Shown here in pieces: positions 5,515 to 56,745 of a stretch of DNA of 64,000 nucleotides. The stretch is from positions 21,031 through 85,030 of the forward strand of contig JARRJV010000025.1 in the NCBI GenBank assembly GCA_037388825.1, written 5' to 3'. The notes beneath the pieces were generated by a model. It saw only the letters and a program-made list of their open reading frames with translations. It was not told the origin of the DNA and did no database searches. The translations under genes were made by a program, and so were the position numbers. Numbering within the stretch: the stretch's first letter is position 1; each line of letters begins with the position of its first letter. Origin of the DNA: Acidiferrobacteraceae bacterium (lineage in GTDB: Bacteria; Pseudomonadota; Gammaproteobacteria; Acidiferrobacterales; JAJDNE01).

Positions 5515-6117
5515 ATGAGTAACGATGGCGTTGACCGTAACCGGCGCCGGCTGCTGACGATCACCACCGGCCTGGGCGCTGTGGGTGTAGTCGGTGCAGC
5601 CGTGCCTTTCGTAATGAGTATGGAACCCAGTGCCCGGGCACGCGCCGCGGGCGCACCGGTGGAGGTTCCGATCGGCAAGATCGAGCCGGGACAGATGATT
5701 ACCGTCCAGTGGCGTGGCAAACCGGTATGGGTCCTGCGCCGCACCAAGAAGATGCTGGACGAAATCAAGAAGGATGAATCCCTGCTGGTGGATCCGTTTT
5801 CGAAAGTAAAGACCCAGCAGCCCCCCTACGTGGGTCCCGAAACCCGGTCCATCAAACCCGAATACCTGGTATTGGTGGGGATCTGCACTCACCTCGGTTG
5901 TTCGCCGAAACCAAAGCTCCAGATCGGTGCCGCTTCCGGTATGGGTCCGAACTGGCCGGGCGGTTTCTTCTGCCCCTGTCACGGGTCCAAGTTCGACCTC
6001 TCGGGCCGAGTATTCAAGAACGTCCCGGCGCCGACGAACCTGGTGGTTCCGCCGTACAAGTATCTGAGCGACACCCGCATCATCATCGGTGTCGATGAAA
6101 AGAAAGGAGCGGCGTGA
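5515..6117 (+). CDS. petA: ubiquinol-cytochrome c reductase Rieske iron-sulfur subunit
   Basis: 200 aa. Tat signal (RRRLL) and Rieske boxes CTHLGC and CPCHGS. Confidence 0.92.
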   Translation: MSNDGVDRNRRRLLTITTGLGAVGVVGAAVPFVMSMEPSARARAAGAPVEVPIGKIEPGQMITVQWRGKPVWVLRRTKKMLDEIKKDESLLVDPFSKVKTQQPPYVGPETRSIKPEYLVLVGICTHLGCSPKPKLQIGAASGMGPNWPGGFFCPCHGSKFDLSGRVFKNVPAPTNLVVPPYKYLSDTRIIIGVDEKKGAA

Positions 6118-7508
6118 TGCAAAAGCTGATTTCCTGGATTGACGATCGTTTCCCTCTCATCGAGACGTGGGAATATCATCTTTCGAAGTACTACGCCCCG
6201 AAGAACTTCAACGTCTGGTACTACTTCGGCTCCCTGGCAGTCGTGGTGCTGGTGATTCAGATTGTCACCGGCATCTTTCTGACCATGCACTACAAGCCGG
6301 ATACGCATTTGGCCTTCGCATCGGTCGAGTACATCATGCGCGACGTCGACTACGGGCGCGACGTCGACTACGGCTGGCTGATCCGCTACATGCATTCCAC
6401 CGGTGCATCGTTCTTCTTTATTACGGTCTATCTGCACATGTTCCGCGGCCTGATGTACGGTTCCTATCGCGGCCCGCGTGAACTGCTGTGGATCATCGGT
6501 GTGGTGATCTTCATCGCCCTGATGGCCGAGGCCTTCATGGGCTATCTGCTGCCCTGGGGCAATATGTCCTACTGGGGCGCGCAGGTGATCATTTCCCTGT
6601 TCGATGCCATCCCGTATGTCGGCCATGGTCTGTCGGAGTGGATTCGCGGTGACTTCGTGGTTTCCGACGCGACCCTGAACCGCTTCTTCGCCTTCCACGT
6701 GATCGCGGTTCCCCTGGTTCTGATCGTGCTGGTATTCCTGCACCTGGTGGCCCTGCATGCCGTCGGCTCCAACAACCCCGACGGGATCGAGATCAAGAAG
6801 AACAAGGGCGAGGATGGTATTCCGCTGGACGGGATTCCGTTCCACCCGTACTACACGGTCGGCAAGGACCTGTTCGGTGTGGTGGTGTTCCTGATGATCT
6901 ATTCCGCCGTGGTATTCCTGGGACCGGAACTGGGCGGTATCTTTCTGGAGCATGACAACTTCGTTCCGGCAAACATCCTGCAGACCCCGCCGGAGATCAA
7001 ACCGCTGTGGTATTTCACGCCGTTCTACTCGATTTTGCGTGCGACCACTTCGGATCTGAAGCCGATTCTCGGCGCGTTCTTTGGCGTGGTTGGTGCCATA
7101 TCTGCCTATTATTCGAGGGGCAAGATACTTCGGGTTGGTGTGATTGGCGCGATCGTTGCGGTTCTCATCCTCGGTCTGTACGTGCTGGAGGCCAAGGTGT
7201 GGGGCGTGATCCTGATGGGTAGCTCCCTGGTGGTGCTGTTCTTCCTACCGTGGCTGGACCAGTCGCCGGTCAAATCTGTCCGCTACCGCGGGTGGATCTA
7301 CAAGCTGGCGCTGACGGTGTTCGTGATTGCCTTCATCATTCTCGGATATCTCGGCATGAAGACCCCGGCAGGGGTGGACCTGATCTGGTTCCAGAACAAG
7401 ACCTGGGCACAGGTGTTTACGATCATCTATTTCTCGTTTTTCTTCCTGATGCCGTTCTATACCCGATGGGACAAAACCAAGCCGGTACCGGAGAGGGTGA
7501 CCAAATGA
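6114..7508 (+). CDS. petB: cytochrome b of the bc1 complex
   Basis: 464 aa. Cytochrome b motifs are present (WLIRYMHSTGASFFF, PWGNMSYWGAQVI, PEIKPLWYFTPFY). The start overlaps the petA stop. Confidence 0.92.
   Translation: MMQKLISWIDDRFPLIETWEYHLSKYYAPKNFNVWYYFGSLAVVVLVIQIVTGIFLTMHYKPDTHLAFASVEYIMRDVDYGRDVDYGWLIRYMHSTGASFFFITVYLHMFRGLMYGSYRGPRELLWIIGVVIFIALMAEAFMGYLLPWGNMSYWGAQVIISLFDAIPYVGHGLSEWIRGDFVVSDATLNRFFAFHVIAVPLVLIVLVFLHLVALHAVGSNNPDGIEIKKNKGEDGIPLDGIPFHPYYTVGKDLFGVVVFLMIYSAVVFLGPELGGIFLEHDNFVPANILQTPPEIKPLWYFTPFYSILRATTSDLKPILGAFFGVVGAISAYYSRGKILRVGVIGAIVAVLILGLYVLEAKVWGVILMGSSLVVLFFLPWLDQSPVKSVRYRGWIYKLALTVFVIAFIILGYLGMKTPAGVDLIWFQNKTWAQVFTIIYFSFFFLMPFYTRWDKTKPVPERVTK
6339..6374 (+). 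repeat. in-frame 18-bp tandem duplication inside petB (RDVDYG x2)
   Basis: cgcgacgtcgactacggg (6339-6356) is followed immediately by cgcgacgtcgactacggc (6357-6374). Confidence 0.9.
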
Positions 7509-11698: not shown

Positions 11699-13097
11699 TT
11701 AGCTACGGTCTTCCCCATTCGCTTCCGGAAAGATCTTCCCCGGATTGAGGATCCCTGCGGGATCGAACTCGTGCCGGATGCGCCGCATGAGATCCAGCGT
11801 TTCCGGGTCAATCTCGCGATTGATGTAGTCGCGTTTTTCCCGGCCGATTCCGTGTTCGCCGGAGAGGGTCCCGCCAAGGGAAAGAACCAGATCGAACACC
11901 GCGTCCAGGCACGGTCGCGCGTGCTCTTGTTGTTCCGGGTCCTGCGAGTCGTACAAGAGATTGACGTGAATGTTGCCGTTACCGGCATGACCGAAATTGA
12001 CGATGGTAATACCATACCTGCGGCTGATCGTTTCCAGGCCGTCGATCAGATTTGGTATCCGTGATACCGGGACCACCACATCCTCGTTCAACTTGTTGGG
12101 TGCCACCGTGCGCAGGGCCGGTGACAACGCCTTACGCGCCGCCCACAGTTGTGCCGCCTCCTCCGCTGTCTGTGCCTGGCGCAGGTCCACCAGGCCATCG
12201 TTACTGGCAGCGCGCGAAACGGCTTCCACTGCCGCGTCCAGACCGGCAAGCGGGCCGTCGACTTCAATCATCAACATCGCCCCGGCGCCCTCGGGCAAGT
12301 CGGCACCGGCGTACTCGCGCGCCATGGAAATGGCGCGTGCATCCATGAACTCAAGGGAACGCGGGATGGTTGCCTGGCCCATGACGGCCGATACGGCCTC
12401 CGCGGCATGGCTGATGTTCTGGTATGCCACACGCAGGGTACGTATGGCCTCGGGCAGCGGCGCGAGCTTCAGGGTCAGTTCGGTGATAATCGCCAGTGTT
12501 CCTTCGGAGCCGATCAGCAGGCGGGTCAGGTCGTAGCCAACCACCCCCTTGGTGGTGTACACGCCGGTCTGGATGGACTCGCCGGCGCCGGTGACCGCCT
12601 TGAGGCCAAGGACATTATCGCGCGTGGTGCCGTACTTCAGGGCGCGCGGGCCCGCGGCGTTGACTGCCGCGTTGCCGCCAATGGTGCAGAAAGCGGCACT
12701 GGTGGGATCTGGCGGCCAGAAGAAACCGTGTTCGGCAGCGGCATCCTGTGCTGTCTGGTTGAGCACACCGGCTTCGACCACCATCACCCGGTTGGCCGGG
12801 TCGGTGGAGAGGATGCGATCCATGCGCTCCAGGGAAAGCACAACGCCCCCGGCGTACGGTACCGCCCCACCGGCGGTGCCGGTGCCGCGCCCACGAACGG
12901 TCAGGGAAATGGATCGCGATCGACACTCGCGCACGAGTTCCACAACTTCCTGTTCCGTGACGGCGAGCGCGACGGCTGCAGGTGGTGAGAGGTGGCGTGA
13001 GTTGTCCTGACCATAGACCCAGCATTCGGCGGGGTCCGTGAGCAGGCGTTCGGCGCCAAAGATCTCCCGCAGACGTGTCAGGAATTCGGGATCCAGC

Positions 13098-13111
<14 letters not shown>
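11699..13111 (-). CDS. FAD-linked oxidase (GlcD / D-lactate dehydrogenase family)
   Basis: The GTG at 13111 ([14 protein letters not shown]...) avoids overlap with hldC. The FAD-binding PCMH-type N-domain ([16 protein letters not shown]) and the C-terminal [10 protein letters not shown] motif are both present. Confidence 0.8.
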
Positions 13112-14577
<1,466 letters not shown>

Positions 14578-16542: not shown

Positions 16543-17397
16543 ATGTCAAACGAGCGCGGGACCCTTTATCTTGTGGCGACACCCATCGGTAACCTGGGTG
16601 ACATGAGCGCGCGGGCCATCGAAACACTCAAGAAAGTGGACCTGATCGCGGCCGAGGATACACGGCACAGCGCGCCCCTGCTGCGTCATTTCTCCATTGC
16701 CACCACCACCACTTCGTTTCATGAACACAACGAAGCGGAGAAGGTTGGACAGCTCGTCGACCGCCTGCGCGCGGGCGAGGATATCGCCCTGATCAGCGAT
16801 GCCGGGACGCCGCTCGTAAACGACCCCGGCTATCGCCTCGTACGGGCCGCGCGCGACGATGGGCTGCGGGTTGTCGCGGTGCCCGGGCCCTGTGCTGCCA
16901 TCGCCGCACTGTCAGTTTCCGGATTGCCAACCGATGAGTTTGTCTTCGCCGGCTTCCCGCCGCCGCGCCGGGAAGCGCGCCGGCGTTGGTTTCAGGAACG
17001 TGCGAACGAGCGGCGTACCCAGATTTTCTACGAAAGCCCGCATCGGATCGTGGAATCCCTGGAAGACATGGCGGCGGTCTACGGAGGGGATCGGGCGGTG
17101 GCCGTCGCAAGGGAACTGACCAAGCGTTATGAGACTGTTCTCGACGGTCCGCTGGTCGCGGTTGTCGAGCGGGTCCGGGACGATCCCAATCAACAGAAGG
17201 GCGAATTCGTGGTCCTGCTTCGGGGGCGGGAAAAGAGAGAAGACGAGATGCCGGATGAAGCGGTGCGAACCCTGGAGATCCTGGCTTCCGAGTTACCGCC
17301 GCGCCAGGCGGCGGCCCTGGCAAGCCAGATTACGGGGCTGGCAAAGAACCGCCTGTATCGGTGGCTGGTGAACTCCGGCTCCGGGAGCAGCAGCTAG
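16543..17397 (+). CDS. rsmI: 16S rRNA (cytidine1402-2'-O)-methyltransferase
   Basis: 284 aa. GTLYLVATPIGNLGDMS...AEDTR is the RsmI signature. Confidence 0.92.
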   Translation: MSNERGTLYLVATPIGNLGDMSARAIETLKKVDLIAAEDTRHSAPLLRHFSIATTTTSFHEHNEAEKVGQLVDRLRAGEDIALISDAGTPLVNDPGYRLVRAARDDGLRVVAVPGPCAAIAALSVSGLPTDEFVFAGFPPPRREARRRWFQERANERRTQIFYESPHRIVESLEDMAAVYGGDRAVAVARELTKRYETVLDGPLVAVVERVRDDPNQQKGEFVVLLRGREKREDEMPDEAVRTLEILASELPPRQAAALASQITGLAKNRLYRWLVNSGSGSSS

Positions 17398-30840: not shown

Positions 30841-31730
30841 ACGTAGCGGCCAATGTAATGCACGGACAGCTGAAGCGGAACGAACCGATGTCGCGCCATA
30901 CCAGTTGGCGTGTCGGCGGCCCGGCGGATTGTTACTACCATCCCGCGGATCTTCAGGATCTGTCCCGGTTTCTGGGCACGCTGCCCGAGGGCGAGCCCGT
31001 GTACTTCGTCGGCCTGGGCAGCAACCTGCTGGTGCGTGATGGCGGCGTGCGCGGGACGGTAGTCGCGACCTCCGGAGCGCTGGGGGATCTGGAATTGATG
31101 GAGGCCGGTTTGGTGCGCGCCGAGGCGGGTGTCGCCAGCGCCAAGGCCGCCCGATTCTGTGCCCGGCACGATCTGGTTGGTGGGGAATTTCTTGCCGGAA
31201 TTCCCGGGACCATTGGCGGCGCCCTGGCGATGAACGCCGGCGCCTTTGGCGGCGAGACCTGGAACATTGTGGCCGCGGTGGAAACCATCGATGTCCATGG
31301 CCAGATTCGCACGCGTACACCGGACGACTTCACCATTGCCTATCGCTCGGTCCACGGACCGGAAGGTGAGTGGTTTGTCGCCGCCCATTTCCGCTTGCGG
31401 CCGGGCGATGGAAGCCATGCAAAGGCTGAGATCAAGCGCCTGCTTGCGCAGCGGGGCAGCAGTCAGCCGACCCAGACAGCCAACGCCGGTTCCGTTTTCA
31501 AGAATCCTCCGGGCGACCATGCCGCGCGCCTGATCGAGGCCACTGGGCTCAAGGGTATCTGCGAAGGCGAGGCCTGCGTTTCGGACATGCATGCCAACTT
31601 CATCGTCAATACCGGCGGTGCCCGTGCCGCCGATATTGAACGTCTCATCGAACGCGTCCGGCAGGCCGTGCACGAAGCCCACGGCGTCCTGCTGGAACCG
31701 GAGGTACGTATCGTGGGGGAGGCCGAATGA
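30837..31730 (+). CDS. murB: UDP-N-acetylenolpyruvoylglucosamine reductase
   Basis: 297 aa. FAD-binding MurB pattern ([19 protein letters not shown]). Confidence 0.92.
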
Positions 31731-32679
31731 GCGCGCGTGGTCTCGGCAAGGTGGCGGTCCTGATGGGCGGACCCTCGGCGGAACGGGAGGTTTCCCTGCG
31801 CAGCGGCGCCGCCGTACTCGCCGCCCTGCAACGCCGCGGTGTGGATGCCCATGGGATCGACGCCGGTCGCGATGTGCTCAAACAACTTGAGCAGTAAGCA
31901 AAGGTATTCTAACATCAAGGTCTCTTGAATCTGTTGTAGCAAAATACCTGATAAACGATAAACAAGCAGAAAATTGGTGATGTATTACGTGAAAATTATT
32001 AATCCAGTGACTTCACAAAATATCTTACTGAAAAAGTGCATCAGACTAACGGTCAAGATGAAACATTCGAACAGAAACTGTCAGGTGCCTTAATCACGCT
32101 GGGGCCTCTACAGATGACTTTTAATTTTACCGGCAATTTCTTCAAACTCCTCTTTTACTGGGCCTGCCGATGGCGGTAAAACCCAATGCGCAGGGATCCA
32201 GTGTCGGCGTAAGCAGGGTAGACCGGCGCGAAGAACTTGCCACCGCCTGGGAGATGGCGCGCGCCCTGGACCCGGTTGTGCTGGCGGAGAGCTGGATTAC
32301 CGGGAAGGAGCTCCACGCCGCCATTCTTGACAACGAGCCGCTGCCCCTGGTGTGGGTGGAGGCGCCTGGCGGTTTCTATACCTACGACGCGAAGTACAAC
32401 TCCGACGCCACACGCTACCACTGCCCGAGCGGCCTTGACCCGGAGGTCGAGGAGAGGGTTCGCATGCTGGCCCTGCAGAGCTTTCACCTGCTCGGTTGTC
32501 GCGGCTGGGGGCGGGTCGATGTGCTGCTGGACGAGTCATCACACCCGTATGTGCTGGAGGTAAACACCCTGCCGGGTATGACGGACCACAGCCTGGTACC
32601 CATGGCGGCACGGGAAGCGGGCATGGATTTCGATGAACTGGTGATGCGAATTCTGGAGGGCAGCCATGGCGAGCGTTAA
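31727..32679 (+). pseudogene. ddl: D-alanine--D-alanine ligase, disrupted (N-terminal 56 codons and C-terminal ~172 codons, out of frame; central part replaced)
   Basis: The ATG at 31727 (ATGA overlap with murB) gives [56 protein letters not shown], then TAA at 31895. Ddl sequence resumes at about 32161 (GLPMAVKPNAQGSSVGVSRV...LEVNTLPGMTDHSLVPMAAREAGMDF...) in another frame. The ALHGRGGEDG block and the first half of the ATP-grasp central domain are absent. Confidence 0.85.
31895..32160. other. AT-rich (~36% GC) foreign-composition segment replacing the middle of ddl
   Basis: Composition breaks abruptly at both edges. Stops occur in all six frames. The 6-bp inverted termini are CAGTAA (31892-97) and TTACTG (32155-60). 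The content was not recognised. Confidence 0.8.
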
Positions 32680-46517: not shown

Positions 46518-47681
46518 TCAGATGACGGATGCGAGTTTGAAGATGGGCAGGTACATCGCGACCACCATGCCGCCCACAATGATACCGAGAAAGGCCATGA
46601 TGATCGGTTCGAGCAGACTGCTTAGGCCGGCTACGGCGTCGTCGACCTCGGTTTCGTAGATATCGGCTACCTTGCCGAGCATGGCATCCAGTTCACCCGA
46701 TTCCTCGCCAATGGCTACCATTTGCACGACCATATTCGGGAACAGGTTTACCTGGCCCATGGCCGCCTGCAGCTGGGTGCCGGTACTGACCTCGTCCTTG
46801 ATCTGCAGCGTTCCATCATAGTAGACCCGGTTGCCCGCGGCGCCAGCGACGGAATCCAGGGCTTCCACGAGCGGTACACCGGCGGCGAACATCGTTGCAA
46901 GGGTGCGACAGAAGCGCGCGATCGTGGCCTTCTTGATGATCGGTCCAATAATCGGAGCGCGCAGCAACAGGCGATCCATCATATGCTGCATCTTCGTGGA
47001 TCGCCTGTAGGCATAGAAGAATCCGCCAATGGTGCCGAAGATGCTGCCGAAGATCAGGATCGCGTGGTTCGTAAAGGCCTTGGACAGATTGATGACGAAT
47101 ACCGTCAGTGCTGGCAGGTCGGCGCCAAAGTCGGCGAACAGACTTTCAAACTGGGGAATCACGAAGATCAGCAAGATCGCGGAAATAATGAATGCGACCA
47201 CAATGACCGCCGTTGGATAGAACAGCGCGGACTTGATCTTGCTCTTCAGGTTCTCGATCTTTTCCTTGTAGGTCGCGATCTTGTCCAGCAGGGTCTCGAG
47301 AATACCGGCCTGTTCACCGGCTCCCACCAGGCTGCAGTAGAGGGAGTCGAAATAGAGCGGATGCTTGGACAAGGCCTCGGTCAGATTGGTGCCGGATTCG
47401 ATATCCTGCTTGACGCGGATCACAAGATCCGCGAGACCCGAATTTTCCGTTCCCTTGGCTACGATATCGAATGCCTGAACGACCGGTAGACCCGCCTGCA
47501 ACATCGTGGCAAGTTGGCGCGTGAAGACCGCAATGTCCTTTGGTTTGATCTTCTTCTTGGTGTTGAACAGGGACTTCTGGGCAACGCCAGTTCCTTCCAT
47601 CTCTCCCTTGATGGTCTTGCCCTGACGGTCGGTACCTTCAAAGATGAAGATATTTGCTTTCTTGACGGCAGCTTGCGCCAT
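46518..47681 (-). CDS. pilC: type IV pilus inner-membrane platform protein (GspF family)
   Basis: 387 aa with the two GspF repeats. The N-terminal region is about 19 aa shorter than my recollection of P. aeruginosa PilC. Confidence 0.9.
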   Translation of the reverse strand: MAQAAVKKANIFIFEGTDRQGKTIKGEMEGTGVAQKSLFNTKKKIKPKDIAVFTRQLATMLQAGLPVVQAFDIVAKGTENSGLADLVIRVKQDIESGTNLTEALSKHPLYFDSLYCSLVGAGEQAGILETLLDKIATYKEKIENLKSKIKSALFYPTAVIVVAFIISAILLIFVIPQFESLFADFGADLPALTVFVINLSKAFTNHAILIFGSIFGTIGGFFYAYRRSTKMQHMMDRLLLRAPIIGPIIKKATIARFCRTLATMFAAGVPLVEALDSVAGAAGNRVYYDGTLQIKDEVSTGTQLQAAMGQVNLFPNMVVQMVAIGEESGELDAMLGKVADIYETEVDDAVAGLSSLLEPIIMAFLGIIVGGMVVAMYLPIFKLASVI

Positions 47682-47707
47682 GACGGATATTCAGTTTCCC
47701 TTGATCG

Positions 47708-49435
47708 TTACTGGTTGGTGACGCGCTCGATTTCCTCGAGGCTGGTGACGCCTGCGGCAACCTTGCGCAGGCCGGAGCGGCGCAGGGGGGTTACGCCTTC
47801 CTTCAGCATCTGCTGTTCGATGTCCAGTTCCGTCCCTTCGCGCATGATGATTTCGCCAATCGCCTCGCTCACGGGCATCACTTCATAGATGCCTACACGT
47901 CCTTTATAGCCGCCGTTGCACGAATCGCAACCCACGGGGCCGTAGACGGTGAGTCCGGCGCCGATTTCCTTGTCCGTGAATCCGGCCTTTTGCAGGGCCT
48001 CATTGGGTAAATCCAGCTTGGTCTTGCATTTCTCGCACAGCCGGCGCCCGAGCCGTTGGGCAATGATCAGGTTCACGGCGGAAGCAATATTGAACGGGGG
48101 TACACCCATGTTTACCAGACGCGTCAGGGTGGCCGGGGCGCTGTTGGTATGCAGGGTGGAAAGCACCATGTGACCCGTCTGGGCCGCCTTGATGGCGATG
48201 CTGGCGGTTTCCAGGTCTCGAATCTCACCTACGAGAATGATGTCCGGATCCTGGCGCAGAAAGGCGCGCAGTACGGAGGAAAAATCCAGTCCGGCCTTTT
48301 CATTGATGTTGACCTGGTTGATGCCGCCCAGATTGATTTCCACCGGGTCTTCGGCCGTGGAAATGTTGCGATCCGGCGTGTTCAGGATATTCACCGCCGT
48401 ATATAAGGTAACGGTCTTACCAGACCCCGTCGGGCCGGTGACAAGCACCATTCCGTAAGGCCTGTGGATCGCCTCCATGAACAATTCTTTTTGATCAGAT
48501 TCAAAACCGAGTTTGTCCACACCGATTGTCGCCGAGGTCGGATCGAGGATACGCAGCACGATCTTTTCACCCCAGAGTGTGGGCAGGGTGCTGACACGAA
48601 AATCGATGGCGCGATTCTTGGAGATGCGCATCTTGATGCGTCCGTCCTGCGGCAGACGCCGTTCGGCGATGTCCAGCCGGGACAGGATCTTGACGCGTGC
48701 TGCGATTCGTCCGGACAGTGCCAGGGGAGGGGCGGCCACCTCGTTCAATACGCCATCTACGCGATAGCGTACCCGGTAGGTCTTTTCATAAGGCTCGATG
48801 TGAATATCCGATGCACCGCGGTTGATCGCATCGAGCAGAACCTTGTTGACGAATTTTACGATCGGGGTGTCATTGACTCCGGTCTCATCGCCTCCCGCTC
48901 GATCCTCGGCGTCTTCGGAAACAACGTCGAGGTCATCGAGACCATCCAGGGACTCATCATCCGAAAACTGCGTGAAAGTCGTGTCGTTGGCCTCGAGGAA
49001 CTTGTCAATGGCCTCGCTGAGCTTGTTGTCCTCGACCAGAACCGGTTCGGTAACGCAGCCGGTATGGAACTTGATTTCGTCGAGGGCGGTGACGCTGGTG
49101 GGATCGGAGGTAGCGATATAGAGTCGATTTCCGCGCTTGTACAGGGGCAGTACCCGGTGTCGGCGAATGATCTTTTCGTCAACCAGCTTGACCGGCGCCG
49201 CCTCCACATCGATGGAATTGATATCCACCAGGGGAACGCCGAATTCCTCGGAGGCGATGCGCGCAAGGGTCGCGCTGTCGACCTTCTTGCTTTCAACGGC
49301 GTAGGAAACGAAAGAGGTCTTTTTCTGCAGCGCCCCTTCCTGAAGGCGCTCGGCGTCTTCCGTGGTCAGGAGCTTGTCGCGTACCAGCCGCAGGGCGAGG
49401 CCGCTGAGTCGGGTTGCGGTCGTCGGTGTCGCCAT
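47708..49435 (-). CDS. pilB: type IV pilus assembly ATPase
   Basis: Taken from the ATG at 49435. Walker A GPTGSGKT, the Asp/His boxes, and the tetracysteine CEKC...CDSC are present. Confidence 0.93.
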   Translation of the reverse strand: MATPTTATRLSGLALRLVRDKLLTTEDAERLQEGALQKKTSFVSYAVESKKVDSATLARIASEEFGVPLVDINSIDVEAAPVKLVDEKIIRRHRVLPLYKRGNRLYIATSDPTSVTALDEIKFHTGCVTEPVLVEDNKLSEAIDKFLEANDTTFTQFSDDESLDGLDDLDVVSEDAEDRAGGDETGVNDTPIVKFVNKVLLDAINRGASDIHIEPYEKTYRVRYRVDGVLNEVAAPPLALSGRIAARVKILSRLDIAERRLPQDGRIKMRISKNRAIDFRVSTLPTLWGEKIVLRILDPTSATIGVDKLGFESDQKELFMEAIHRPYGMVLVTGPTGSGKTVTLYTAVNILNTPDRNISTAEDPVEINLGGINQVNINEKAGLDFSSVLRAFLRQDPDIILVGEIRDLETASIAIKAAQTGHMVLSTLHTNSAPATLTRLVNMGVPPFNIASAVNLIIAQRLGRRLCEKCKTKLDLPNEALQKAGFTDKEIGAGLTVYGPVGCDSCNGGYKGRVGIYEVMPVSEAIGEIIMREGTELDIEQQMLKEGVTPLRRSGLRKVAAGVTSLEEIERVTNQ

Positions 49436-49555
49436 GGTTGTGGATGAAACTCCCGGTGATCTTTCAGTCGGTGGCATACAACACGACCCGGATACAATTA
49501 TCGTGCCCGAGCCGATTCACTGCTACTCGTATGATAGTAGATGAGATGTTGCGCG

Positions 49556-49581
49556 CAGCCAAACATTTTTGGCTGTTTTTT
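49556..49581 (+). terminator. orphan terminator-like hairpin in the pilB-rubrerythrin intergenic region
   Basis: cagccaaa-catt-tttggctg followed by tttttt on the + strand. No + strand gene lies upstream. Confidence 0.45.
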
Positions 49582-49677
49582 CATGTACCACAACAAGGGG
49601 ACAAAACAGGCTTTCCCGGGGAGATTGTGGGGCTTGATGGATATCAATGCGCCTGTGTGCCCGCTCTCCGAGAATGA

Positions 49678-49706
49678 TTGACACCGGAAAGGCAAAAAAT
49701 TAGAAT
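49678..49706 (+). promoter_or_regulatory. sigma70 promoter of the rubrerythrin operon
   Basis: TTGACA (49678-83), a 17-nt spacer, then TAGAAT (49701-06). The AGGAG RBS precedes the ATG at 49734. Confidence 0.65.
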
Positions 49707-49733
49707 GGTTCTAAATCGGTTAGGAGCACCCTC

Positions 49734-52685: not shown

Positions 52686-54578
52686 ATGGCATCGACATAC
52701 GATTCGTCGGCGATTGAGGTCCTGACCGGCCTGGAGCCGGTGCGCAAGCGTCCGGGGATGTATACCCAGACCGAGCGCCCAAACCATCTGGCGCAGGAAG
52801 TCATCGACAACAGCGTCGATGAGGCCATCGCCGGACACGCGAAGAAGATCGACGTCACGTTGCACAAGGATGGATCGGTGTCCGTATCCGACGACGGGCG
52901 AGGCATGCCGGTCGACAAGCACAAGGAAGAAAAGGTGTCCGGGGTGGAGGTCATCCTGACCCGGCTTCATGCCGGTGGCAAGTTCTCCGGCAAGAATTAC
53001 ACTTTCTCCGGCGGTCTCCACGGAGTGGGCGTATCAGTGGTCAATGCCCTTTCCGAGAAGCTGGAGGTGGAAGTGCGCCGTGGCGGCAAGATCTATCGCA
53101 TGAGCTTTGCCGACGGTCAAAAAACATCGGAACTTCGGGCCTCCGGCAAGTGCAAAGCCTCCGAAAGCGGGACGACGGTGCATTTCTGGCCCGATCCCAA
53201 ATTTTTTGATTCACCCAAGATCAGCGTACCGCGCCTGAAACATGTCATGCGTGCCAAGGCGGTTTTGTGCCCGGGGCTGACCGTCACTTTCCACAATGGC
53301 GGCAACAAGGCCGATGACGAGCAGTGGTACTACGAGGGCGGGCTTTCCGATTACCTATTGTCCGAACTGGAAGGCGAGACCCTGTTGCCGGATACGCCGT
53401 TTACAGGGAACAGCGTCGGAGAACTGGAACAGGTTGATTGGGCGGTGGTGTGGTTGCCGGAGGGTGGGGAACCGGTACTGGAGAGCTACGTCAATCTCAT
53501 CCCGACGGTACAGGACGGTACCCACGTAAACGGATTCCGCAGCGGGTTGACCGAGGCCATGCGTGAGTTCTGCGAGCTGCGCAATCTCTTGCCCAAGGGT
53601 GTCAAGATCGCCCCCGACGATGTGTGGGGCAGATGCAGCTTTGTCCTGTCCCTGAAAATGCAGGATCCCCAGTTCTCCGGGCAGACCAAGGACCGCCTGT
53701 CCTCGCGGGAAGCGGCGGGATTTGTCGCATCCGCGTCGCGCGATGCCTTTGGTCTGTGGCTGAACCAGCACGTGAAGATGGCCGAGGCCATCGCCGAACT
53801 GGTGATTGATAGTGCCCAGGCCCGGATGCGCGCGGGCAAGCGCGTGGAGCGCAAGAAGATCAGTGCGGGACCGGCGTTGCCGGGCAAACTGTCGGATTGC
53901 CTGAGCCAGGACCTGGGGCAGACGGAGTTATTCCTGGTGGAGGGAGATTCCGCCGGTGGTTCGGCGAAGCAGGCACGCGACCGCAACTACCAGGCGGTCA
54001 TGCCGCTGCGCGGCAAGATCCTGAACACCTGGGAAGTCGACCCGGGCGAGGTGTTGGGCTCGAAAGAGGTCCATGACATCGCTGTTGCCCTCGGGGTGGA
54101 CCCCGGCTCCAGCAGACTCGACGGCTTGCGCTACGGCAAGGTGTGCATCCTTGCCGATGCCGACTCCGACGGCGCCCACATTGCGACGCTCCTCTGCGCC
54201 CTGTTTGTGCGTCACTTCCGTTCCCTGGTGCAGGCGGGCCATGTGTATGTCGCCATGCCGCCCCTGTACCGCATCGATATCGGCAAGCACGTGTTCTATG
54301 CCCTGGACGATGCCGAGAAAAAGCAGGTTCTGAAACGAATCGAAGACGAGAAGCTGCGCGGAAAGGTCAATGTGCAGCGCTTCAAGGGACTTGGGGAGAT
54401 GAACCCCTCCCAGCTACGCGAGACCACCATGGCGCCGGATACGCGACGACTGGTCCAGCTGACGGTTCGCGCCGGGGACAACACCAACAAGGTGCTGGAC
54501 ATGCTGCTGGCCAAGAAACGGGCGGCGGACCGCAAGTCATGGCTGGAGAAGAAAGGTAACAAGGCCGAGGTTCTGTAA
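52686..54578 (+). CDS. parE: DNA topoisomerase IV subunit B
   Basis: 630 aa. The short GHKL-TOPRIM type B subunit ([19 protein letters not shown]) ends ...[18 protein letters not shown].... parC follows. Confidence 0.92.
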
Positions 54579-54657
54579 TTCATGGCGACCCGGAAGAAAA
54601 AAGCGGCGAAGAAATCCGCGAAGAAAAAGGCCGCGCGCAAGACTGATCGTCTATGCC

Positions 54658-56745
54658 ATGTCCGAACTGGGCCTGAACGCCGCCGCCAAGTACAAGAAGT
54701 CAGCGCGCACCGTAGGTGACGTATTGGGCAAGTTCCATCCCCATGGTGATACGGCCTGCTACGAGGCCATGGTGCTCATGGCCCAGCCCTTCAGCTATCG
54801 CTATCCACTGGTGGACGGACAGGGCAACTGGGGATCGCTGGACGATCCAAAGTCGTTTGCCGCCATGCGCTATACCGAGGCTCGGCTAGCCCGTTATTCA
54901 CAGGTCCTGTTGTCGGAACTGGGGCAGGGGACGGCGGATTGGGTGCCCAACTTCGATGGTACGCTGGAAGAACCCCGCGTATTGCCCGCACGCCTGCCCA
55001 ACGTGCTGCTGAACGGAACCACCGGCATCGCTGTGGGTATGGCTACCGACATTCCGCCGCACAATCTGCGCGAGGTCGGGGCCGCCTGCGTACAGCTGCT
55101 GGAGAAGCCGTCCAGCAGCATTGCCGATCTGTGCAAACACATTCAGGGACCGGACTTCCCTACCGATGCGGAAATCATCACGCCGCAACGCGAGATCCGG
55201 GAGATTTACGAGAGCGGCAATGGCACGGTTCGCATGCGTGCGCACTGGCGCCAGGAGGAGGGCGAAATCGTGGTTGACGCCCTGCCGTACCAGGTCTCCA
55301 GTGGCAAGATTCTGGAACAGATCGCCGCCCAGATGCAGGCCAAGAAACTGCCCATGGTTGAAGACCTGCGCGACGAATCGGACCAGGAGCATCCGGTCCG
55401 TCTCGTTATCGTTCCCCGCTCGTCCCGGGTCGATGCCCAGCAGATGATGTCCCATCTCTTCGCCACCACGGATCTCGAGCGCAACTATCGCGTCAATCTG
55501 AACATCATTGATCTGACCGGTCGCCCGCGGGTGTACAACCTGCGTGATTTGCTCCGCGACTGGATCGATTACCGGCTCGAGACCGTACGAAGGCGCCTGC
55601 AGTATCGCTTCGACCGCGTCGTCGCGCGATTGCATGTCCTGGAAGGCCTGATGCTGGCCTACCTGAACCTGGACGAGGTGATTCGCATCATTCGTACCGA
55701 GGATGAGCCAAAACCGAAACTGATCAAGCGATTCAAGCTCACGGACATCCAGGCGGAAGCGATCCTGGAAACGCGGTTGCGGCACCTGGCCAAACTCGAG
55801 GAAATGAAGATCCGCGGCGAGCAGGAAGAGTTGACAGTAGAACGGGACAGTCTGGACAAGATTCTCAAGTCCAAAACGCGCCTCAGAACGCTGGTGAAAA
55901 ACGAAATCAAGGACGATATGCATGAGTTTGGCGACGAACAACGCTCGCCTATCGTCGAGCGCGAAGCGGCACAGGCCATCGATCAGGCATCGTTGTTGCC
56001 CACGGAACCGATTACCGTTGTTCTTTCACAAAAGGGTTTCGTGCGTGCGGCACGCGGGCACGAGATTGACCCTCGTTCCCTGTCCTACCGTTCCGGGGAC
56101 GAATATCTGCACCACGCCCGCGGGCGAAGCAATCAACTGGCAATCTTCATCGATTCGACCGGCCGTGCGTATTGCCAGCCGGCACACAAACTGCCTTCGG
56201 CCCGGGGGCAGGGAGATCCGGTGGCGAGCTACTTCAATCCGCCTCCGGGCGCGACCTTCGCCGGTGTAATCATGGGGCAGCCGGACGACCTGTATCTACT
56301 CTCAACGGATTCCGGCTACGGCTTTGTCGCCCGTCTGGAAGACCTGCTGACCCGGACCCGCAACGGCAAGGCGGTCCTGAAGGTGCCCAAGGGTGCACGC
56401 GTTCTGCCACCGCAAAGGGTCATGAGCCATGAAGAAGACTGGGTCGCGGCAGTGACCAATACCGGGCGCTTGTTGACCTTCATGATCGGTGAGCTGCCGG
56501 CCATGGCCCGCGGCAAGGGAATCAAGATCATCAACGTCCCGACCAAGAAAGCCGCGGCACGGGAAGAGTTCGTCGTTTCCGTTTGTGTGTTTCCGGAGGA
56601 CAAGGGATTGACGGTCTATGCCGGACAGAAGAAGCGGGTCCTTACGGTAGACGATCTGGATCAGTTCATCGGCGAGCGGGGCCTGCGTGGCAGCAAACTG
56701 CCCAAGGGCTACCAGAAGGTTGAGCGGATGGAGGTCACGGAATAG
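54658..56745 (+). CDS. parC: DNA topoisomerase IV subunit A, apparently 5'-truncated (conserved N-terminal ~35-50 aa missing)
   Basis: The ORF begins at [31 protein letters not shown].... This aligns to about residue 49 of E. coli ParC and about residue 55 of P. aeruginosa ParC as I recall them. The active-site AAMRYTE is present. Only 79 nt separate it from the parE stop. Confidence 0.8.

What the first reader, a model, noticed from the sequence alone, without database searches (positions are those of the whole stretch)
54579..54719. parC lacks its conserved N-terminal segment and is preceded by an out-of-frame Lys-rich mini-ORF
**What is missing.**
- ParE ends at 54578. The ParC ORF starts only 79 nt later, at [31 protein letters not shown]….
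- In E. coli and P. aeruginosa ParC (from memory), about 48-54 residues precede this point. They include the highly conserved …YL.YSMYVI.DRALP...[13 protein letters not shown] block.
- Here only …LIVYA survives, in frame and upstream of the ATG, with no start codon.

**What is there instead.**
- An ATG at 54582 opens [27 protein letters not shown]…, 45 codons long and in the +1 frame relative to parC.
- Loss of one A in either homopolymer (A6 at about 54595-54600, A5 at about 54624-54628) would fuse this basic leader to parC.
- The fused product would be MATRKKK…(R/K-rich)…[12 protein letters not shown]…, a ParC whose conserved N-terminal arm is replaced by a histone-like tail.

**Possible explanations.**
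- an internal deletion plus a homopolymer sequencing error
- a real remodelled or frameshift-dependent parC
- a pseudogene

Together with the ddl lesion, this makes two damaged core genes in 64 kb.
Basis: partly seen in the sequence, partly recalled or inferred. Interest (0 to 1): 0.6.

Follow-up and report, generated by a model that had tools for sequence, protein, structure and literature searches.

The report
parC broken by private 185-base deletion
The lysine-rich "mini-ORF" is the normal start of the topoisomerase IV parC gene in this bacterial order, and this one metagenome-assembled genome lacks 185 bases that every near-identical relative has, so this is a damaged or mis-assembled copy and not a new kind of ParC.

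Summary
parE stops at 54578. An ATG at 54582 opens a 45-codon Lys-rich frame. The parC body is readable only from ATG 54658, one base out of phase.

The interpretation needs changing. Acidiferrobacterales ParC proteins normally begin with a 37-73 residue Lys/Arg/Ala-rich extension, followed by the canonical N-terminal block. The first 21 codons of the "mini-ORF" are identical to the start of a 99%-identical, 782-residue ParC.

DNA alignment shows the window lacks exactly 185 nt (codons 22-83). The junction is 54645|54646, with no microhomology. 185 = 3n+2, which alone explains the frameshift. Both A-runs are identical in the intact relatives, so there is no homopolymer error.

Five independent assemblies of the same population (about 99.9% nt identity, identical ParE) all carry the intact gene.

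The window matches a GenBank MAG contig (locus-tag prefix P8X48). ParE and LpxR there have consecutive protein accessions, so parC has no protein record.

The same 64 kb holds five more private structural lesions, including foreign AT-rich DNA inside ddl. The other assemblies show no indels among themselves.

Verdict: a disrupted gene, most likely a MAG-reconstruction artefact (about 0.6), otherwise a recent real lesion (about 0.35). The conserved basic tail on ParC is the only mildly new point.

The parts
52686..54578 (+). parE (topoisomerase IV subunit B). It is intact at 630 aa, with its TAA stop at 54576-54578.
   Evidence: ORF list. The exact protein is in the public collection as NCBI MEJ2107007.1 and on five JGI contigs.
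54567..54570 (+). GAGG, a Shine-Dalgarno-like motif 11 nt upstream of the native parC start. It lies inside the end of parE, which suggests translational coupling (inferred).
   Evidence: Sequence read. The 3-nt parE-stop/ATG spacing is conserved in L081 and L082.
54582..54645 (+). Authentic 5' end of parC: codons 1-21 plus the first base of codon 22. This is [21 protein letters not shown], the first half of the lineage-specific basic N-terminal extension.
   Evidence: Identical in DNA to L081 7387-7450 and in protein to residues 1-21 of P0001/P0121-P0123.
54645..54646 (+). Deletion junction (…CAAGACTG|ATCGTCTATGCC…). 185 nt present in all relatives are absent here. The missing stretch runs from the second base of codon 22 to the end of codon 83 and encodes [62 protein letters not shown].
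   Evidence: Alignment A1. BLAST breakpoints are identical in L081 and L083-L086. The missing segment is translated. No microhomology is visible. The segment is not found elsewhere in the window.
54646..56745 (+). Remainder of parC: native codons 84-782 plus the stop. It is readable here only from Met88 (ATG 54658) as a 695-aa ORF. The catalytic-Tyr motif AAMRYTE is retained. No Shine-Dalgarno motif precedes ATG 54658.
   Evidence: It carries only 3 private substitutions (one of them nonsynonymous, R515Q) and no stop codon.
54646..54719 (+). Out-of-frame read-through from the native start after the deletion ([24 protein letters not shown]). It is a consequence of the deletion and not a gene.
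   Evidence: The exact 45-aa product is absent from the 15-billion-protein collection. It has no Pfam hit.

Best explanation
**What it is.** This is an ordinary parE-parC operon in which parC has lost 185 nt.

In Acidiferrobacterales, ParC is made from the ATG 3 nt after the parE stop. It starts with a 37-73 residue Lys/Arg/Ala-rich extension, followed by the canonical N-terminal block.

In this window the stretch from codon 22 to codon 83 is missing. It holds the second half of the tail plus [32 protein letters not shown].

**Consequences.**
- 185 is not a multiple of three, so translation from the true start runs out of frame and stops after 45 codons.
- The rest of parC remains only as a start-less, Shine-Dalgarno-less ORF.
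- The lost block contains the equivalents of E. coli GyrA Arg32, Lys42, Arg46 and Arg47, which belong to the DNA-cleavage site. Even a fused or internally initiated product should be catalytically dead (inferred).

**Where the lesion exists.** It is private to this GenBank MAG contig. parC evidently has no protein record there.

**Cause.** The most likely cause is an error of MAG reconstruction (assembly, polishing or consensus of a mixed population). My estimates are about 0.6 for an artefact and about 0.35 for a real, very recent deletion.

**Shown and inferred.**
- Shown: the deletion, its exact borders, the native tail, and the intact allele in relatives.
- Inferred: loss of function, and artefact versus real.
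For: - **Intact relative.** The closest ParC (P0001, 99% identical) is 782 aa. It begins [27 protein letters not shown]…[43 protein letters not shown].
- **Clean gap.** The DNA alignment shows a clean 185-nt gap with 100% identical flanks.
- **Five independent assemblies.** Five contigs from five different samples have identical ParE, are 99.9% identical in DNA, and carry an intact 782-codon parC. All four members of the ParC cluster are 782 aa.
- **Tail is lineage-wide.** The basic tail is present in more than 100 of the 120 nearest ParC clusters and in the Acidiferrobacterales genome loci L001-L004. It is absent from about 70 other Gammaproteobacteria.
- **Profiles.** ParC profiles and solved ParC structures align from residue 45 of the intact protein. 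The window ORF enters the TIGR01062 profile at position 45 of 735.
- **Deposited record.** NCBI accessions run ParE MEJ2107007.1 then LpxR MEJ2107008.1, so no ParC protein was deposited. The lesion-bearing PilC (387 aa) and the two ddl fragments are NCBI proteins of the same 90,891-bp contig.
- **Allele not seen elsewhere.** The deletion junction was not found in 241 million metagenome records. The truncated products are absent from the protein collection.
- **Other private lesions in the window.** There are five more: -57 nt in pilC, -38 nt and -23 nt in intergenic DNA, an 18-nt duplication in petB, and 263 nt of 36%-GC foreign DNA replacing 231 nt of ddl.
- **Unusual mutation spectrum.** The JGI assemblies show 48 SNP sites and 0 indels among themselves. 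Fisher p = 0.0007-0.02.
- **No decay.** The rest of parC shows no decay.
- **Active site.** The GyrA active-site cluster Arg32/Lys42/Arg46/Arg47 is taken from PMC4297366.
Against: - No reads are available, so artefact and real deletion cannot be separated.
- A de Bruijn-graph assembler cannot invent a junction that is absent from the reads. If the MAG is short-read only, some molecules or library chimeras must carry the junction.
- Two of the six private lesions are in frame (pilC -19 aa, petB +6 aa) and two are intergenic. That is what natural variants look like.
- The indel excess is computed against assemblies that probably share one pipeline.
- The absence of a ParC accession is an inference from consecutive numbering. 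I did not read the GenBank record.
Confidence: 0.6

Rival explanations
1. The 185-nt deletion is real in the sampled cells. It would be either a very recent pseudogenisation of parC or a defective sub-population or haplotype that happened to dominate the reads used for this MAG. Topoisomerase IV would be inactive, and the cells would be dying, complemented within the population, or relying on gyrase for decatenation.
For: - The lesion is in the deposited record together with other private variants. Four of these are in-frame or intergenic and could be natural.
- Base-level quality of the contig is otherwise high: only 38 private SNPs across the roughly 52.6 kb covered by at least two independent assemblies, and no single-base frameshifts.
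- From general knowledge, some bacteria live without topo IV.
Against: - Five of five independent assemblies at 99.9% identity are intact.
- parE is untouched, and the 2.1-kb parC remainder has no further damage.
- A second core gene, ddl, is interrupted by unrelated 36%-GC DNA in the same 64 kb.
- The junction is absent from metagenome contigs.
- The indel:SNP ratio is out of line with the population.
Confidence: 0.35
2. This is a functional remodelled ParC. A +1 frameshift or homopolymer slippage in the A-runs would fuse the basic leader to the body. The result would be a topo IV subunit whose conserved N-terminal arm is replaced by a histone-like tail.
For: - Removing one base between 54582 and 54658 would join the two frames.
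- The basic tail is a genuine, conserved protein segment in the lineage.
Against: - No relative has this architecture. All have tail plus canonical block in one frame.
- The A-runs are unchanged relative to the intact genes.
- The missing block carries the DRALP Arg and the KPVQRR cluster of the cleavage site.
- The arrangement is fully explained by a 3n+2 deletion.
Confidence: 0.03
3. Sequence handling removed a scaffold gap (a run of N) or a masked stretch, and this produced an apparent deletion.
For: - The junction is blunt with no microhomology.
- The window contains no N.
- Several deletions of unrelated sizes occur in the window.
Against: - The lesion-bearing products are deposited NCBI proteins: PilC of 387 aa with the in-frame 57-nt loss, and ddl fragments of 56 aa and 169 aa. 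The lesions therefore exist as contiguous sequence in the public record.
- An N-run would not explain the 263-nt foreign segment or the 18-nt duplication.
Confidence: 0.02

Closest known systems
Gram-negative topoisomerase IV subunit A (ParC; TIGR01062 parC_Gneg). Solved examples are PDB 6bq9 and 1zvu; 9kgt, 6waa and 5eix are ParE-ParC fusion constructs.
   Same: - The body scores 1003 bits against a cut-off of 629.
- It is 65-70% identical to gammaproteobacterial ParC.
- It has PF00521 plus the PF03989 C-terminal domain.
- It lies immediately downstream of parE.
- The catalytic AAMRYTE motif is present.
   Different: - As written in the window, it lacks profile positions 1-44, including DRALP and DGLKPVQRR, and it has no start codon in frame.
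- The intact relatives differ from textbook ParC only by an extra basic N-terminal extension of about 44 residues, which no solved structure covers.
Lysine-repeat (histone H1-like) C-terminal domain of actinobacterial topoisomerase I (TopA), and the related Lys-rich tails of HupB/HupS and Ku
   Same: Both are low-complexity Lys/Ala-rich segments appended to a DNA-topology enzyme in a GC-rich lineage. In TopA the repeats stabilise the enzyme-DNA complex and raise processivity (PMC7398561). This is a plausible analogy for the ParC tail.
   Different: - The enzyme class differs (type IA versus type IIA).
- The position differs (C-terminal versus N-terminal).
- No sequence homology was tested or is expected.
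- The function of the ParC tail has not been tested.
Disrupted genes in metagenome-assembled genomes that the annotation pipeline leaves without a protein record
   Same: - The lesion is private to one assembly.
- The protein accession numbering skips parC.
- Neighbouring genes are perfect.
- Other local structural anomalies lie in the same contig.
   Different: Typical MAG pseudogenes come from single-base homopolymer indels or contig ends. Here the lesions are blunt events of 23-263 nt in a contig that is otherwise accurate at base level.

Membership tests
Topoisomerase IV subunit A (ParC, TIGR01062 parC_Gneg / PF00521) | Whole-protein score above the curated cut-off of the equivalog model | tested here: met
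   The 695-aa ORF scores 1002.9 bits against a cut-off of 628.9. PF00521 scores 413 bits against a cut-off of 31.
Topoisomerase IV subunit A (ParC, TIGR01062 parC_Gneg / PF00521) | Full-length coverage, including the N-terminal block (YL.YSMYVI.DRALP…DGLKPVQRR) that carries the equivalents of GyrA Arg32/Lys42/Arg46/Arg47 | tested here: not met
   The window ORF enters the profile at position 45 of 735 (PF00521 at 21 of 432). The intact relative P0001 covers positions 2-734. The deleted 185 nt encode exactly this block. The residue roles are from PMC4297366.
Topoisomerase IV subunit A (ParC, TIGR01062 parC_Gneg / PF00521) | Catalytic tyrosine motif (AAMRYTE) present | tested here: met
   The motif …[13 protein letters not shown]… is present in the 695-aa translation and aligns to solved ParC chains.
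Topoisomerase IV subunit A (ParC, TIGR01062 parC_Gneg / PF00521) | A translatable gene, with a start codon and ribosome-binding site in frame with the body | tested here: not met
   The native ATG 54582 is out of frame with the body. The parC frame upstream of 54658 has no start codon. No Shine-Dalgarno motif precedes ATG 54658.
Topoisomerase IV subunit A (ParC, TIGR01062 parC_Gneg / PF00521) | Operon partner parE immediately upstream | tested here: met
   parE is at 52686..54578 and intact. The order parE-parC-lpxR is the same in all related contigs.
Programmed ribosomal frameshift / slippage-dependent gene | A two-frame architecture and slippery site conserved in relatives | tested here: not met
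   All relatives encode ParC in one frame. The same A-runs occur within intact single-frame genes.
Lysine-repeat DNA-anchoring tails (actinobacterial TopA type) | A Lys/Ala-rich low-complexity extension conserved across a lineage on a DNA-topology enzyme | tested here: met
   The region ahead of the conserved FTE.AYL.YSM motif is 37-73 residues long, with 9-28 K/R and 1-4 D/E, in more than 100 ParC clusters. It is absent outside the order.
Lysine-repeat DNA-anchoring tails (actinobacterial TopA type) | The tail binds DNA and increases processivity | not testable with these tools
   This needs biochemistry. The only basis is analogy to PMC7398561.

The most novel reading that the evidence does not exclude
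The lesion itself is not the new biology. The new point is what it exposes: ParC across the order Acidiferrobacterales carries a conserved, histone-H1-like Lys/Arg/Ala-rich N-terminal tail of about 40-70 residues that other Gammaproteobacteria lack. The tail may act as a DNA anchor that changes topo IV processivity or localisation, by analogy with the Lys repeats of actinobacterial TopA. A far less likely reading (about 0.03) is that the deletion allele is real and tolerated or functional.
Probability: 0.45. Interest if true: 0.35.

Novelty: not a real feature. Interest (0 to 1): 0.12.

Why it matters
- **For annotation.** This parC should be treated as a disrupted or mis-assembled gene. It should not be counted as a novel ParC architecture or as evidence of genome decay.
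- **For the MAG.** The contig carries about one private structural lesion per 10 kb, two of them in core genes (parC and ddl). This is a warning about the quality of this MAG.
- **For biology.** The only transferable point is modest. A conserved basic N-terminal tail on a type IIA topoisomerase subunit is specific to one order. I found no description of it in the literature searches I ran. It could be tested biochemically.

Tried and rejected
- **Homopolymer error.** Rejected. The A-runs are identical in the intact relatives.
- **Programmed frameshift or fusion protein.** Rejected on comparative grounds.
- **Slippage between direct repeats.** No microhomology at the parC junction.
- **Segment moved elsewhere in the window.** Not found.
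- **Independent occurrence of the deletion allele.** The junction 28-mer has no exact match in metagenome contigs. The truncated 695-aa product and the 45-aa product are not in the protein collection.
- **Divergent block bounded by two deletions (47577-49720).** I first thought this was a sign of contig stitching. I rejected it: 21 of the 22 mismatches sit in one intergenic patch, 49459-49699, whose haplotype also occurs in L082.
- **Lesions made by window preparation (N removal or planting).** Rejected. The lesion-bearing PilC and ddl fragments are deposited NCBI proteins.
- **Origin of the 263-nt AT-rich insert in ddl.** No match in E. coli genomes, plasmids or phages, no exact 44-mer in metagenome contigs, and no Rfam family.
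- **Fetching the NCBI contig itself by exact-protein look-up.** Failed.
- **Look-up with the 530-aa ORF 11702-13291(-).** Failed; no protein of that sequence is on record.
- **gyrA integrity.** It cannot be checked because gyrA is not in the window.

Full report
**1. The observation**

- parE (52686..54578, 630 aa) ends with TAA at 54576-54578.
- An ATG at 54582 opens [45 protein letters not shown]. This is 45 codons and ends at 54719.
- The only long parC-frame ORF starts at ATG 54658 ([31 protein letters not shown]…, 695 aa). It is one base out of phase with the first frame.
- Upstream of 54658 the parC frame stays open (…[16 protein letters not shown]) but has no ATG, GTG or TTG.
- The 695-aa ORF is clearly ParC: TIGR01062 parC_Gneg scores 1003 bits against a cut-off of 629. 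It enters that profile at position 45 of 735, and PF00521 at position 21 of 432.
- The only inaccuracy is that the A6 run lies at 54597-54602.

**2. What the Lys-rich ORF is**

A protein search with the 695-aa ORF returned Acidiferrobacterales ParC proteins of 770-796 aa. That is 25-45 residues longer than textbook ParC.

The best hit, P0001, is 99% identical and 782 aa long. It begins [93 protein letters not shown]…. Its first 21 residues are identical to the window's "mini-ORF".

The extension is a trait of the lineage.
- In more than 100 of the 120 nearest ParC clusters, 37-73 residues precede the conserved FTE.AYL.YSM motif. They hold 9-28 Lys/Arg and only 1-4 acidic residues.
- In genome loci the extension is present in the Acidiferrobacterales (L001-L004).
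- About 70 other Gammaproteobacteria instead have a 16-19 residue acidic leader such as MSESLDLSLDGVERRSLAD.
- ParC profiles and all solved ParC/GyrA structures align only from residue 45 of the intact protein.

So the Lys-rich reading frame is the true 5' end of parC. It is not an independent ORF, and it does not replace the conserved arm.

**3. What is missing**

I aligned the window with the contigs that encode P0001 (L081) and P0002 (L082). The alignment shows a single clean gap of 185 nt in the window.
- The flanks are 100% identical to L081.
- The junction is …GCGCGCAAGACTG|ATCGTCTATGCCATG… at 54645|54646.
- The missing DNA runs from the second base of codon 22 to the end of codon 83.
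- It encodes [62 protein letters not shown].

185 = 3×61+2, so the deletion alone creates the frame offset. Both A-runs are unchanged relative to the intact genes, so no homopolymer error needs to be invoked. There is no microhomology at the borders. The segment is not elsewhere in the window.

The lost block contains the DRALP arginine and the KPVQRR cluster. These correspond to E. coli GyrA Arg32, Lys42, Arg46 and Arg47, which are listed as part of the cleavage-religation active site (PMC4297366).

The body downstream keeps the catalytic AAMRYTE motif. It has no Shine-Dalgarno motif before ATG 54658. The native start has GAGG 11 nt upstream and sits 3 nt after the parE stop.

My inference is that the expected product is a 45-residue nonsense peptide. 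Any internally initiated or fused ParC should be inactive.

**4. Is the lesion shared?**

No.
- The window's exact ParE protein occurs on five contigs from five different JGI samples (L081, L083-L086). One of them is a 177,988-bp contig.
- All five are 99.9% identical to the window in DNA. All five carry an intact 782-codon parC directly after parE.
- All four members of the 90% ParC cluster are 782 aa.
- The junction 28-mer has no exact match in the metagenome contig collection.
- Neither the 695-aa product nor the 45-aa product exists in the 15-billion-protein collection.

**5. Where the window comes from**

Exact-sequence look-ups tie the window to a GenBank MAG, "Acidiferrobacteraceae bacterium". 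Its locus-tag prefix is P8X48 and the contig is 90,891 bp. Protein accessions follow gene order:

| Gene | Accession | Note |
|---|---|---|
| MurB | MEJ2106987 | |
| ddl N-terminal fragment | MEJ2106988 | 56 aa, "hypothetical protein P8X48_06610" |
| ddl C-terminal fragment | MEJ2106989 | 169 aa, "ATP-grasp domain-containing protein" |
| FtsA | MEJ2106991 | |
| PilC | MEJ2107001 | 387 aa |
| PilB | MEJ2107002 | |
| ParE | MEJ2107007 | |
| LpxR | MEJ2107008 | |

No accession lies between ParE and LpxR. parC therefore has no protein in the deposit and is presumably flagged as a pseudogene. This is an inference from the numbering.

The lesions are part of the public record. They were not produced when the window was prepared.

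**6. Context: the contig has more private lesions**

I tiled the whole window with contigs of the same population (L081-L096). Five further structural differences are private to the window.

| Position | Difference |
|---|---|
| about 6338-6373 (petB) | 18-nt tandem duplication GCGCGACGTCGACTACGG, with four clustered substitutions upstream |
| 17420 | loss of 23 nt of a terminator-like hairpin |
| 31895-32157 (ddl) | 263 nt of 36%-GC sequence replace 231 nt of 63%-GC ddl; unmatched by E. coli genomes, plasmids, phages, metagenome 44-mers or Rfam |
| 47577 (pilC) | in-frame loss of 57 nt |
| 49720 | loss of 38 nt upstream of a rubrerythrin gene |

The petB difference rests on one comparison contig, L094.

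In the roughly 52.6 kb covered by at least two independent assemblies, the window has 38 private SNPs. Of these, 21 lie in one hypervariable intergenic patch, 49459-49699, whose haplotype also occurs in L082. The JGI assemblies differ among themselves at 48 sites and by no indel at all. Six indels against 17-38 SNPs, compared with 0 against 48, gives Fisher p = 0.0007-0.01. With five indels the value is 0.02.

The parC remainder shows one private nonsynonymous change (R515Q), two private synonymous changes, and no stop codon. There is therefore no sign of decay over time.

**7. Explanation and rivals**

Shown:
- a 185-nt deletion private to this MAG contig, in an otherwise normal, tail-bearing parC;
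- the intact allele in every independent assembly.

Inferred: the gene is non-functional as written.

I cannot decide the cause without reads, so I give estimates.

- **Artefact of MAG reconstruction, about 0.6.** Two core genes are hit within 64 kb. Foreign low-GC DNA sits inside ddl. The indel:SNP spectrum is anomalous. There is no decay. No independent occurrence was found.
- **Real, very recent deletion or a defective haplotype, about 0.35.** Base-level quality is high. Four of the six lesions are in-frame or intergenic and look natural. A graph assembler cannot invent junctions that are absent from the reads.
- **Functional, frameshift-dependent or remodelled ParC, about 0.03.** No relative shares the architecture, and the cleavage-site arginines are gone.
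- **Removal of an N-gap during sequence handling, about 0.02.** The lesion-bearing proteins are deposited as contiguous products.

**8. Comparison with known systems**

The gene is a member of Gram-negative ParC by score, by domain content and by synteny. As written, it fails the full-length, active-site and translatability criteria.

The lineage's basic tail resembles, in composition and plausibly in role, the histone-H1-like lysine repeats of actinobacterial topoisomerase I. Those repeats stabilise the enzyme-DNA complex and raise processivity (PMC7398561). The ParC tail is N-terminal, sits on a type IIA enzyme, and has not been tested. Searches of the held literature for ParC N-terminal extensions found no description of it.

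**9. Verdict**

The finding is a correctly observed lesion with an ordinary explanation. It is a private 185-nt deletion in one MAG record, probably an artefact. It is not a novel ParC.

Interest is low (0.12). The conserved basic N-terminal tail of ParC in the Acidiferrobacterales is a minor observation that may be new. It is worth a note but is not the finding that was flagged.

Noticed in passing
window 31895-32157 (ddl, gene span about 31727-32679): 263 nt of 36%-GC sequence replace 231 nt of 63%-GC ddl coding sequence present in all related contigs (L087 8488-8718). This splits ddl into a 56-aa fragment (NCBI MEJ2106988.1) and a 169-aa fragment (MEJ2106989.1). The insert has no match in E. 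coli genomes, plasmids or phages, no exact 44-mer match in metagenome contigs, and no Rfam family. Its origin is unknown; it may be a chimeric fill.
   Followed up: partly
window 54582-54645, and P0001-P0120 residues 1 to about 45: ParC of Acidiferrobacterales carries a conserved Lys/Arg/Ala-rich N-terminal extension of 37-73 residues with 9-28 K/R. Other Gammaproteobacteria have a short acidic leader instead. No solved ParC/GyrA structure or curated profile covers the extension.
   Followed up: partly
window 47577 (pilC / T2SSF gene, 46518..47681, minus strand): An in-frame 57-nt deletion (19 aa) relative to six related contigs. The shortened 387-aa protein is deposited as NCBI MEJ2107001.1, whereas relatives have 406 aa. 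There is 2-nt (TC) microhomology at the junction.
   Followed up: partly
window 49459-49720 (intergenic, between pilB and a rubrerythrin gene): A hypervariable patch: 21 substitutions in 240 nt relative to the otherwise 99.9%-identical contigs. The window's version matches that of the 94%-identical L082. Directly after it, a window-private 38-nt deletion removes half of a hairpin (AAATCGGTCGTAGCCGATTT) next to the palindrome TTAGAATGGTTCTAA, which could be an operator.
   Followed up: partly
window 17420 (intergenic, downstream of rsmI 16543..17397): A 23-nt private deletion (GCAAAAAAAAGCCCCGTTTCCGG) removes one arm of a terminator-like GC hairpin that is present in L091 and L092.
   Followed up: no
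window about 6305-6373 (cytochrome b gene petB, 6117..7508): An 18-nt tandem duplication (GCGCGACGTCGACTACGG, twice) adds six residues (RDVDYG) in a conserved part of cytochrome b. Four clustered substitutions lie just upstream. The exact 463-aa product is not in the protein collection, whereas relatives have 457 aa. The comparison rests on one contig, L094.
   Followed up: partly
L071 (contig JBHEPS010000075.1) and L038 (contig JBIOTX010000324.1): Two MAGs labelled Thermoanaerobaculia carry a gammaproteobacterial-type ParC that is 63-66% identical to the window's. The L071 copy starts MATRKKKGGSG…. This suggests bin contamination or mislabelling.
   Followed up: no
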